Assembly: GCA_048939465.1 (NCBI GenBank)
Contig: JBHLPL010000062.1
Location: 1-11,592, forward strand
Reading direction: 5' to 3'
DNA length: 11,592 bases
Source: Promethearchaeota archaeon
Lineage (GTDB): Archaea > Asgardarchaeota > Odinarchaeia > Odinarchaeales > JBHLKK01
A model generated the notes under the pieces. The model was not told the DNA's origin. It did no database searches and saw only the letters and a list, made by a program, of their open reading frames with translations. The number at the start of each line of letters is the position of its first letter. Position 1 is the first letter of the stretch. This document shows positions 5,287 to 5,464 of this stretch, piece after piece. A program made the translations under genes and the position numbers.

Positions 5287-5464
5287 TGGTGCCGCGACCG
5301 GGAATTTCGCAGTGAGAAAACTCTCGATTTGCTTCGAACCCGGGTTTCCCATTATGGAAGATACGATTTTCATTTTCGACATCTTTCCATAAGCTTGGGG
5401 GTTCTTCCTAGGCTTTTCCTTAGTCGAAAGCCCCAGATGCTTGGCCGTGCTACACCATCGCGGC
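5287..5464 (-). tRNA. tRNA-Glu(TTC) with three introns: 37/38 (5402-5424, 23 nt), 45/46 (5346-5393, 48 nt), 59/60 (5304-5332, 29 nt). Mature 78 nt, CCA encoded
   Basis: Acceptor stem GCCGCGA/TCGCGGC-A-CCA; D arm GTGT-AGCACGGCCAA-GCAT; anticodon arm TGGGG-CTTTCGC-CCCCA; variable region AGAC; T arm CCGGG-TTCGAAT-CCCGG. BHB central helices are CTTT/GAAG, CCCA/TGGG and TTCG/CGAA, each with two 3-nt bulges. Confidence 0.93.

What the first reader, a model, noticed from the sequence alone, without database searches (positions are those of the whole stretch)
5287..5464. Triple-intron tRNA-Glu(TTC): 100 of 178 nt are intron
Seen: introns at 37/38, 45/46 and 59/60, each with a valid central helix and two 3-nt bulges; the spliced product is a clean 78-nt cloverleaf. 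Established: three-intron tRNAs are rare and described mostly in Thermoproteales. Together with Asn and Leu, all three tRNAs in the window carry non-canonical introns, which indicates lineage-wide intron proliferation and a broad-specificity EndA that could also act on mRNA.
Basis: partly seen in the sequence, partly recalled or inferred. Interest (0 to 1): 0.7.

Follow-up and report, generated by a model that had tools for sequence, protein, structure and literature searches.

The report
Three-intron glutamate tRNA gene, Asgard archaeon
This is a real, conserved gene for the glutamate tRNA that reads GAA, cut into four pieces by three small protein-spliced introns in an Odinarchaeum-related Asgard archaeon; heavily interrupted tRNA genes are already published for Asgard archaea, so it is one more example and not a new kind.

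Summary
Observation confirmed. On the minus strand, 5464 to 5287, lies a 178-nt tRNA-Glu(UUC) gene with encoded CCA. Its introns are 23 nt (37/38), 48 nt (45/46) and 29 nt (59/60), 100 nt in all. Each has a 4-bp central helix and two 3-nt bulges. Introns 1 and 3 are strict hBHBh'. Intron 2 has no exon-exon helix, so it is the relaxed HBh' type. Splicing gives a 78-nt cloverleaf that ARAGORN calls tRNA-Glu(ttc). ARAGORN and Rfam both miss the unspliced gene.

- **Conservation:** two sister species keep all three introns, and 0 of 78 exon columns vary against 21 of 101 intron columns.
- **History:** four genomes of the sister family, three of which match NCBI records labelled Odinarchaeota or Odinarchaeia, have only the first two introns, so the T-loop intron is specific to this genus.
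- **Copy number:** no second Glu(UUC) gene was found in the assembly, and GAA is 59% of Glu codons.
- **Machinery:** the genome encodes a catalytic EndA with the crenarchaeal-type loop, a paralogue without the catalytic His, and RtcB.
- **Context:** about 40 tRNA loci carry roughly 1.5 inserts each, and five carry three or more.

Earlier notes of this scan report three-, four- and six-intron tRNAs in this same genome. Multi-intron Asgard tRNAs are published (PMC11291895; bioRxiv 10.64898/2026.10.13.758758). No RNA evidence could be obtained.

The parts
5287..5464 (-). Whole tRNA-Glu(UUC) gene, 178 nt including the encoded CCA (5289-5287)
   Evidence: An intron-tolerant DP search with the mature sequence recovers exactly this span.
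5425..5464 (-). Exon 1, 40 nt: positions 1-37 (acceptor 5' strand, D arm, anticodon stem 5' strand, C32 to G37 including anticodon UUC)
   Evidence: It is 98% identical to the Odinarchaeum-family orthologues.
5402..5424 (-). Intron 1, 23 nt, canonical position 37/38, strict hBHBh' (H CUUU/GAAG, h 5 bp = anticodon stem, h' 3 bp)
   Evidence: It sits at the same position in all 7 genomes of the order, with different h' sequences.
5394..5401 (-). Exon 2, an 8-nt micro-exon: C38, anticodon stem 3' strand CCCCA (39-43), A44, G45
   Evidence: It is identical in all 7 orthologues.
5346..5393 (-). Intron 2, 48 nt, position 45/46, relaxed HBh' (H CCCA/UGGG, h' 8 bp, no h). Its central helix uses tRNA positions 40-43, so it cannot form together with the anticodon stem.
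   Evidence: The sister family has a 20-nt intron at the same site.
5333..5345 (-). Exon 3, 13 nt: A46, C48, T stem 5' strand CCGGG, T loop U54 to A59
5304..5332 (-). Intron 3, 29 nt, T-loop position 59/60, strict hBHBh' (H UUCG/CGAA, h 5 bp = T stem, h' 2 bp)
   Evidence: (a 29-nt gap against compact relatives). It is present in the 3 genomes of this genus and absent from the 4 sister-family genomes.
5287..5303 (-). Exon 4, 17 nt: U60, T stem 3' strand, acceptor 3' strand, A73, CCA
5490..5497 (-). TATA-like box TTATATTT, 26-33 nt upstream of the mature 5' end. It lies in a block that is nearly invariant in the three genus members (three variable columns in the last 44 nt, none in the TATA box).
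   Evidence: Alignment. A similar TTTATATTA box lies upstream of the Odinarchaeum-family orthologues. Its function is inferred from the general position of archaeal promoters and was not tested.

Best explanation
This is the functional, and in this assembly the only, gene for tRNA-Glu(UUC) of an Odinarchaeum-related Asgard archaeon.

Inferred pathway:
- The gene is transcribed from its own TATA-type promoter as a precursor of at least 178 nt.
- The splicing endonuclease EndA cuts once in each 3-nt bulge of three bulge-helix-bulge motifs, six cuts in all. The enzyme is a catalytic alpha subunit with the crenarchaeal-type loop plus a non-catalytic paralogue.
- RtcB joins the four exons (40, 8, 13 and 17 nt) into a 78-nt tRNA that already carries CCA.

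Introns 1 (37/38) and 3 (59/60) sit in strict motifs that are compatible with the cloverleaf. Intron 2 (45/46) sits in a relaxed motif. Its central helix borrows the 3' strand of the anticodon stem, so its fold and the anticodon stem exclude each other.

The likeliest order is therefore intron 2 first, because the predicted ground state of the full precursor shows its motif, and then intron 1. Intron 3 is independent of both. This order is inferred from folding energies only.

Introns 1 and 2 predate the split from the Odinarchaeum family. Intron 3 is specific to this genus.
For: Sequence and structure:
- All three motifs are present and the product is a clean tRNA-Glu(ttc).
- The motifs are unlikely by chance, joint probability about 8e-7.

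Purifying selection:
- Among three species of the genus, 0 of 78 exon columns vary, against 21 of 101 intron columns and 32 of 121 flank columns (Fisher 2e-6 and 3e-8).
- The neighbouring DHH-family protein is only about 78% identical, and synteny with tRNA-Leu is kept.
- Variable intron sites avoid the central helices, and only one bulge base varies.

Seven orthologues:
- The central helices are kept while the h' helices have different sequences (CUA/UAG versus UCCAG/UUGGA; UUAUGGAA/UUCCAUAA versus AGAG/CUCU). The structure is maintained, not the sequence.
- The mature sequences of the two families differ at 4 of 78 positions, including a compensatory C50-G64 to U50-A64 change in the T stem.

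Motif-free checks:
- Intronless Glu(UUC) genes of two more distant Asgard genomes are 67 of 78 identical to the spliced product. Aligned to the unspliced gene, they place three gaps totalling 100 nt, including a 29-nt gap in the T loop.
- The junctions AG|AC and UUCGAA|U match their UGAC and UUCAAAU.

Need for the gene:
- BLAST and an intron-tolerant DP search find no other locus with a UUC anticodon above noise.
- GAA is 59% of Glu codons.

Machinery:
- EndA alpha matches 3P1Z_B at E 1.5e-44, keeps Tyr, His and Lys, and aligns without gaps across the loop region.
- A paralogue has Ala in place of the catalytic His.
- There are two RtcB loci.

Splicing order:
- The MFE of the full precursor (-62.5 kcal/mol) forms intron 2's helix. 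Forcing the anticodon stem plus intron 1's helix costs 3.8 kcal/mol.
Against: No RNA data exist here, so excision of any of the three introns is inferred, not observed.

Intron 2 lacks the exon-exon helix h, so its cleavage depends on an endonuclease that accepts relaxed motifs. That is assumed from homology and not measured.

The assembly is 91% complete, so a second Glu(UUC) gene on unassembled DNA cannot be excluded.

The conservation test rests on three related genomes.

The splicing order rests on nearest-neighbour energies for a naked RNA. A difference of 3.8 kcal/mol does not prove an obligatory order, and intron 1's own H plus h' can still form while the anticodon stem is open.
Confidence: 0.88

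Rival explanations
1. It is a decaying pseudogene: a former tRNA-Glu gene that has accumulated insertions and no longer gives a working tRNA.
For: ARAGORN and Rfam do not recognise the locus. 56% of it is insert. The assembly is incomplete.
Against: The exons are 100% identical in three species while introns and flanks vary at 21-26% of columns. There is a compensatory T-stem change between the two families. The promoter block is conserved. No other Glu(UUC) gene was found, although GAA is the majority Glu codon. All six splice sites sit in intact BHB geometry in every orthologue.
Confidence: 0.03
2. The gene is real but the intron map is partly wrong. For example, intron 1 might lie at 38/39 and give A38, or the 100 extra nucleotides might be divided differently.
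For: A motif-free alignment to compact relatives misplaces the 8-nt exon inside intron 2. A few alternative BHB combinations also give ARAGORN calls, namely a Ser(aga) and some four-intron variants.
Against: By hand pairing of the bases (not a numbered tool call), the 38/39 alternative breaks the central helix with a C-A mismatch; consistently, no candidate at those boundaries appears among the length-compatible solutions that give an ARAGORN call. The alternatives have flank helices of 0-3 bp and are not conserved. The chosen map gives a perfect 5-bp anticodon stem, and the same exon 2 is recovered independently in four sister-family genomes with different intron sequences.
Confidence: 0.05
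3. The gene is real, but intron 2 (relaxed motif, no h helix) is not removed by EndA alone. It might need another nuclease or a protein or RNA cofactor, or it might be removed only after the other introns.
For: h is 0 bp in all seven orthologues. Its central helix competes with the anticodon stem. Variable-region inserts form canonical motifs only about 21% of the time in the Asgard census (bioRxiv 10.64898/2026.10.13.758758).
Against: HBh' motifs are established substrates of the (alpha-beta)2 enzymes that carry the extra loop (PMC5829648; PMC4090602), and this genome has that type. H, both bulges and h' are intact and conserved across two families.
Confidence: 0.04

Closest known systems
Multi-intron tRNA genes of Asgard archaea (Atabeyarchaeia, Freyarchaeia/Jordiarchaeia): Valentin-Alvarado et al. 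2024, PMC11291895; Goswami et al. 2026 preprint, 10.64898/2026.10.13.758758
   Same: Same phylum-level group and the same kind of protein-spliced BHB introns at canonical and non-canonical sites. Several introns per gene occur (up to five reported). T-arm inserts mostly sit in canonical motifs and variable-region inserts often in relaxed ones. Standard tRNA finders fail on them. The EndA background is (alpha-beta)2.
   Different: This lineage is different: an Odinarchaeum-related family, which the main text of the preprint does not mention by the name Odin. My rough estimate of about 1.5 inserts per gene is lower than the 2.2 of the focal families. This particular gene and its intron set are not described in those papers as far as I could read them; I did not read their supplementary tables.
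Three-intron tRNA genes of Thermoproteales, for example Pyrobaculum islandicum tRNA-Pro(UGG) with introns at 25/26, 37/38 and 56/57 (Sugahara 2007/2008, as cited in PMC4090602)
   Same: One canonical plus two non-canonical BHB/HBh' introns in one gene. 45/46 and 59/60 are on the published list of archaeal non-canonical positions. Both depend on a broad-specificity (alpha-beta)2 EndA.
   Different: The phylum is different. Thermoproteales introns form sequence families shared between tRNAs, which suggests transposition. The three Glu introns have no detectable relatives elsewhere in this genome.
Orthologous tRNA-Glu(UUC) of the Odinarchaeum family (genomes G003-G006; three of them match NCBI records titled Candidatus Odinarchaeota/Odinarchaeia J65_bin.29, RPA3 and HHBFW-2 bin 221)
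   Same: The mature sequence is 74 of 78 identical. Introns lie at 37/38 and 45/46 with the same central helices and the same 8-nt exon 2.
   Different: There is no intron at 59/60. Intron 2 is 20 nt instead of 48-49 nt. The h' sequences differ. The T loop has A57 where this gene has G57, which pairs with intron 3.

Membership tests
Archaeal protein-spliced (EndA/BHB) tRNA intron | A 4-bp central helix flanked by two 3-nt bulges on opposite strands, with the cut inside each bulge | tested here: met
   Met by all three introns in G000, G001 and G002, and by both introns in four sister-family genomes.
Archaeal protein-spliced (EndA/BHB) tRNA intron | Strict hBHBh' form: both outer helices, h (exon-exon) and h' (intron-intron), of at least 2 bp | tested here: inconclusive
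   Met by intron 1 (h 5, h' 3) and intron 3 (h 5, h' 2). Not met by intron 2 (h 0, h' 8), which falls in the relaxed HBh' class.
Archaeal protein-spliced (EndA/BHB) tRNA intron | Removing the introns yields a canonical cloverleaf tRNA | tested here: met
   ARAGORN calls the 78-nt product tRNA-Glu(ttc). It has a 7-bp acceptor stem, a 4-bp D stem (two G-U pairs), a 5-bp anticodon stem and a 5-bp T stem, plus U8, A14, G18G19, U33, U54U55C56 and A58.
Archaeal protein-spliced (EndA/BHB) tRNA intron | The genome encodes a splicing endonuclease able to cut non-canonical or relaxed motifs, and an RtcB-type ligase | tested here: met
   Two PF01974 loci. The alpha subunit keeps the catalytic residues and aligns without gaps across the loop region of Aeropyrum EndA. 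The paralogue lacks the catalytic His. There are two RtcB loci. Substrate range is inferred from PMC5829648 and was not measured.
Archaeal protein-spliced (EndA/BHB) tRNA intron | The introns are actually excised from the RNA | not testable with these tools
tRNA-Glu(UUC) | Anticodon UUC in a 7-nt loop, with body similarity to known Glu tRNAs | tested here: met
   The loop is C-U-UUC-G-C. The product is 67 of 78 identical to intronless Glu(UUC) genes of two other Asgard genomes; the G010 copy scores 57.7 bits with Rfam tRNA. The discriminator is A73.
Split or permuted tRNA gene | Exons encoded at separate loci or in permuted order | tested here: not met
   All four exons are colinear within 178 nt on one strand.
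Asgard (Odinarchaeia-related) lineage | Genome placement next to Odinarchaeum | tested here: met
   GTDB-based kinship puts G003-G006 in the same order. G006:C75:432-471 has the same coordinates as NCBI contig JAWBON010000075.1, titled Candidatus Odinarchaeota. The same-genus contig is titled Candidatus Hodarchaeota DZ1B.307 at NCBI. I built no phylogeny myself.

The most novel reading that the evidence does not exclude
The T-loop intron (59/60) is a recent gain in this genus that can be dated, because it is absent from the sister family Odinarchaeum. In addition, the 3' end of intron 2 (UGGG) imitates the 5' strand of the anticodon stem. The precursor would then have to lose intron 2 before the anticodon stem and intron 1's strict motif can form. 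That would be an enforced splicing order acting as a folding checkpoint for the only GAA-reading tRNA. The weak likeness of intron 3 to an insert in the ahcY mRNA of the same window would then hint at exchange of introns between tRNA and protein genes.
Probability: 0.12. Interest if true: 0.55.

Novelty: new member of a known kind. Interest (0 to 1): 0.3.

Why it matters
This gene shows that the heavy interruption of tRNA genes reported for Atabeyarchaeia and Freyarchaeia also reaches an Odinarchaeum-related family. There the sole tRNA for the commonest glutamate codon depends on six endonuclease cuts and three ligations.

The comparison of two introns in one family with three in its sister is a clean small case of intron turnover on a short time scale.

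It is also a practical warning. ARAGORN found no tRNA in this window and Rfam found only one of three, so tRNA complements of such genomes are badly under-called.

It does not open a new question. The phenomenon, the motif and the enzyme type are all published.

Tried and rejected
- **Direct detection:** ARAGORN in default and intron modes, and Rfam at gathering score and at E up to 10, did not find the gene.
- **Strict BHB-splice-plus-ARAGORN solver:** on the 22 full-length Rfam tRNA hits it was noisy. It returned nothing for four of them and many lenient alternative calls, so I did not use it for the census.
- **Motif-free global alignment:** aligning to compact Glu(UUC) genes gave the right number and total length of gaps but misplaced the 8-nt exon.
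- **Intron-tolerant DP search:** it produced shadow hits beside real genes (spans over 350 nt with 6-8 jumps), which I discarded by eye. The counts are therefore approximate and a lower bound, because neighbouring introns get merged.
- **Copies of the introns elsewhere:** a search of the genome found nothing better than E about 0.07, so there is no sign of recent transposition.
- **Intron 3 versus the ahcY insert at 346-377:** they share an 8-mer and the UUCG/CGAA helix. The shuffle p-value is 0.007 for the whole intron and 0.05 for the interior, which is too weak given how many introns the genome holds.
- **Alternative 38/39 boundary for intron 1:** rejected because it breaks the central helix (by hand pairing of the bases; consistently, no candidate at those boundaries appears among the solutions listed).
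- **A second Glu gene:** the candidate at C117:652-790 turned out to be Glu(CUC), not UUC.

Full report
**What is there**

Read on the minus strand from 5464 down to 5287, the window holds a 178-nt stretch. It begins with a typical archaeal Glu/Asp-type acceptor and D arm and ends in an acceptor 3' strand, A73 and CCA. ARAGORN finds no tRNA in the window by default. With intron options it still does not find this one. Rfam finds only the neighbouring tRNA-Leu at gathering score, and nothing tRNA-like at 5200-5560 even at E up to 10.

Removing bases 41-63, 72-119 and 133-161 of the gene leaves 78 nt. These are window 5424-5402, 5393-5346 and 5332-5304, that is 23 + 48 + 29 = 100 nt. ARAGORN calls the 78-nt product tRNA-Glu(ttc) with a standard cloverleaf.

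**The three splice motifs**

I used the rule that each cut lies after the second base of a 3-nt bulge and that the bulges are separated by 4 bp. This puts the first two anticodon bases in the central helix, as PMC4090602 describes. Under that rule all three introns fit:

| Intron | Position | Central helix | Bulges | h | h' |
|---|---|---|---|---|---|
| 1 | 37/38 | CUUU/GAAG | CG^A, AA^C | 5 bp (anticodon stem) | 3 bp |
| 2 | 45/46 | CCCA/UGGG | AG^C, AA^A | none | 8 bp |
| 3 | 59/60 | UUCG/CGAA | AA^G, AU^U | 5 bp (T stem) | 2 bp |

Introns 1 and 3 are strict hBHBh' motifs. Intron 2 is the relaxed HBh' form.

After shuffling each intron, the motif reappears at the fixed boundaries in 11.5%, 0.026% and 2.6% of trials, jointly about 8e-7. 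Among the 79 length-compatible sets of BHB candidates, this is the only three-intron set that gives a 78-nt tRNA-Glu, and no other set has flanking helices as good at every intron.

**Comparative evidence**

Two other species of the same genus (G001, G002) carry the whole gene at 91-92% identity.

- In the three-way alignment none of the 78 exon columns varies. By contrast 21 of 101 intron columns and 32 of 121 flanking columns vary (Fisher 2e-6 and 3e-8).
- The variable intron sites lie in the distal hairpins. The central helices are untouched, and only one bulge base (the first base of intron 3) changes.
- Synteny is kept: a DHH-family gene on one side, at about 78% protein identity, and a divergent tRNA-Leu on the other.
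- Most of the roughly 44 nt upstream are kept (three variable columns), and the TTATATTT box at -33 to -26 is identical in all three.

Four genomes of the sister family have the orthologue with introns at 37/38 and 45/46 only. Three of them match NCBI records titled Candidatus Odinarchaeota or Odinarchaeia.

- In these the central helices and the 8-nt exon 2 are the same, but the h' helices are built from different sequences. The structure is conserved, not the sequence.
- The mature tRNAs of the two families differ at 4 of 78 positions. Two of these are a compensatory C50-G64 to U50-A64 change in the T stem.

Two more distant Asgard genomes have intronless Glu(UUC) genes that are 67 of 78 identical to the spliced product. 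The G010 copy scores 57.7 bits with Rfam. Aligned to the unspliced gene, both place three gaps totalling 100 nt, including a 29-nt gap in the T loop. The 8-nt exon is too short for that alignment to place correctly.

Other Asgard genomes carry Glu or Asp genes with their own T-loop and variable-loop introns, for example G029 at 38/39 and 59/60. These positions therefore recur.

**Is it the working gene?**

BLAST with the mature sequence and its exons finds no second copy. I also wrote an alignment search that allows free jumps of up to 161 nt. I ran it over both strands of the whole assembly with the mature sequence and with the compact Glu(UUC) gene. It finds this locus, tRNA-Asp, and two Glu(CUC) genes. 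It finds nothing else above the noise level of shuffled queries, which is 45-54. The two Glu(CUC) genes are an intronless one at C80:4345-4419 and a two-intron one at C117:652-790.

GAA makes up 59% of glutamate codons in long open frames. The assembly is 91% complete, so absence of a second copy is not proven.

**Machinery**

The genome has two PF01974 loci.

- One encodes a 204-aa protein that matches the catalytic subunit of Aeropyrum pernix EndA (3P1Z_B) over its full length at E 1.5e-44. The Tyr, His and Lys are conserved, and the alignment is ungapped across the segment that forms the crenarchaeal-specific loop.
- The other encodes a 191-aa protein that is closest to the M. jannaschii enzyme but has Ala where the catalytic His stands.

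This fits the (alpha-beta)2 architecture with the L1 loop that Kaneta et al. report for Asgard archaea and link to broad substrate range (PMC5829648). Two RtcB loci are present.

**How it probably works**

The steps of transcription, six cuts by EndA and three ligations by RtcB are inferred from homology. None is observed.

Intron 2's central helix uses tRNA positions 40-43, so it cannot coexist with the anticodon stem, which is the outer helix of intron 1's motif. The unconstrained minimum-energy fold of the full precursor (-62.5 kcal/mol) forms intron 2's helix, bulge and hairpin. Forcing the anticodon stem plus intron 1's helix costs 3.8 kcal/mol. After intron 2 is removed in silico, the anticodon region pairs.

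I therefore think intron 2 is usually removed before intron 1, with intron 3 independent. This is a weak inference, because intron 1's own H and h' can form in either state.

**Genome context**

Rfam finds only 24 tRNAs here, against 32 in the closed Odinarchaeum-family genome and 36 in a more distant Asgard genome.

I combined those hits with the jump-tolerant search using 35 compact reference tRNAs and counted about 40 loci.

- They carry roughly 1.5 inserts of 10 nt or more each.
- About 90% are interrupted.
- About half have two or more inserts, and five have three or more.

This tally was made by eye after discarding shadow hits. It is a lower bound. The Glu gene is thus in the upper tail but not alone.

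Earlier notes of this scan report three-, four- and six-intron tRNAs elsewhere in this genome. My search independently hit an initiator-like locus at C63:4379-4640 with at least four inserts.

The other two tRNAs in the window also carry non-canonical inserts. Leu(UAG) has one in the variable arm. Asn(GUU) has a D-loop insert of about 31 nt plus a canonical intron, and its D-loop motif has one mismatch in the central helix by my hand reading.

A 27-nt insert in mtaD at 3265-3291 has the same geometry (H CAUG/CAUG, h' 5 bp). Removing it replaces an in-frame stop with the continuous HTHAAMTLLRGYADD motif.

**What is known**

- 45/46 and 59/60 are on the published list of archaeal non-canonical positions, and three-intron tRNAs are known from Thermoproteales (PMC4090602).
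- For Asgard archaea, 92-95% of tRNA genes in three complete genomes have introns and over half have several (PMC11291895).
- A 2026 preprint reports a mean of 2.2 and up to five intervening sequences per gene in two classes, widespread (alpha-beta)2 EndA, and no intron families shared between tRNAs (10.64898/2026.10.13.758758).

Consistent with the last point, the three Glu introns have no relatives elsewhere in this genome.

**Verdict**

The locus is a new member of a known kind. It is real, conserved and probably essential, but not surprising to a specialist. What remains open is direct RNA evidence.

Noticed in passing
window 3265-3291 (minus strand, inside mtaD): A 27-nt insert with BHB geometry (H CAUG/CAUG, bulges ACA/AUU, h' 5 bp) carries an in-frame stop. 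Removing it joins the frames into the continuous motif HTHAAMTLLRGYADDLPLHEWL. It looks like a tRNA-type intron in a protein-coding gene. Earlier notes of this scan cover it.
   Followed up: partly
window 5588-5695 (+) and 3938-4062 (-): tRNA-Leu(UAG) has an insert of about 20 nt in its long variable arm. tRNA-Asn(GUU) has an 18-nt canonical intron (h 7, h' 3) plus a D-loop insert of about 31 nt, whose central helix has one A-C mismatch by my hand reading. ARAGORN mislabels them as Tyr and Gln.
   Followed up: partly
genome contig C117:652-790 (+) and C80:4345-4419 (-): There are two different tRNA-Glu(CUC) genes. One is intronless. The other has two introns, one inside the anticodon loop after position 34 and one at about 53/54 at the T stem/loop border. 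This could be redundancy or a trace of the 3.8% contamination; I did not resolve which.
   Followed up: partly
genome contig C31:2961-5708 (-): The RtcB Pfam match is split into two pieces (profile positions 1-57 and 45-426) about 1.4 kb apart within one 973-aa open frame. That would fit an intein-containing RtcB.
   Followed up: no
window 346-377 versus 5304-5332 (both minus strand): The T-loop intron of tRNA-Glu and an insert in ahcY share the exon context UUCGA, the 3' helix strand CGAA and the 8-mer GAGAGTTT. The shuffle p-value is 0.007 for the whole intron and 0.05 for the interior. That is too weak to claim common origin.
   Followed up: yes
genome contig C63:4379-4640 (-): The jump-tolerant search with a compact initiator tRNA hits a 262-nt locus with at least four inserts of 10 nt or more plus a 9-nt one. 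This is consistent with the six-intron initiator tRNA noted earlier in this scan.
   Followed up: no
window 5488-5523 (minus strand): A weak Rfam C/D-box snoRNA-like match (SNORD43, 15.5 bits, E 1.6) lies just upstream of the tRNA-Glu promoter. The region is variable among the three genus members, so it is probably chance.
   Followed up: no
whole genome G000: The Rfam tRNA model finds only 24 tRNAs in this 91%-complete genome. ARAGORN finds none of the three in the window by default. Standard annotation of such genomes will badly under-call tRNAs.
   Followed up: partly
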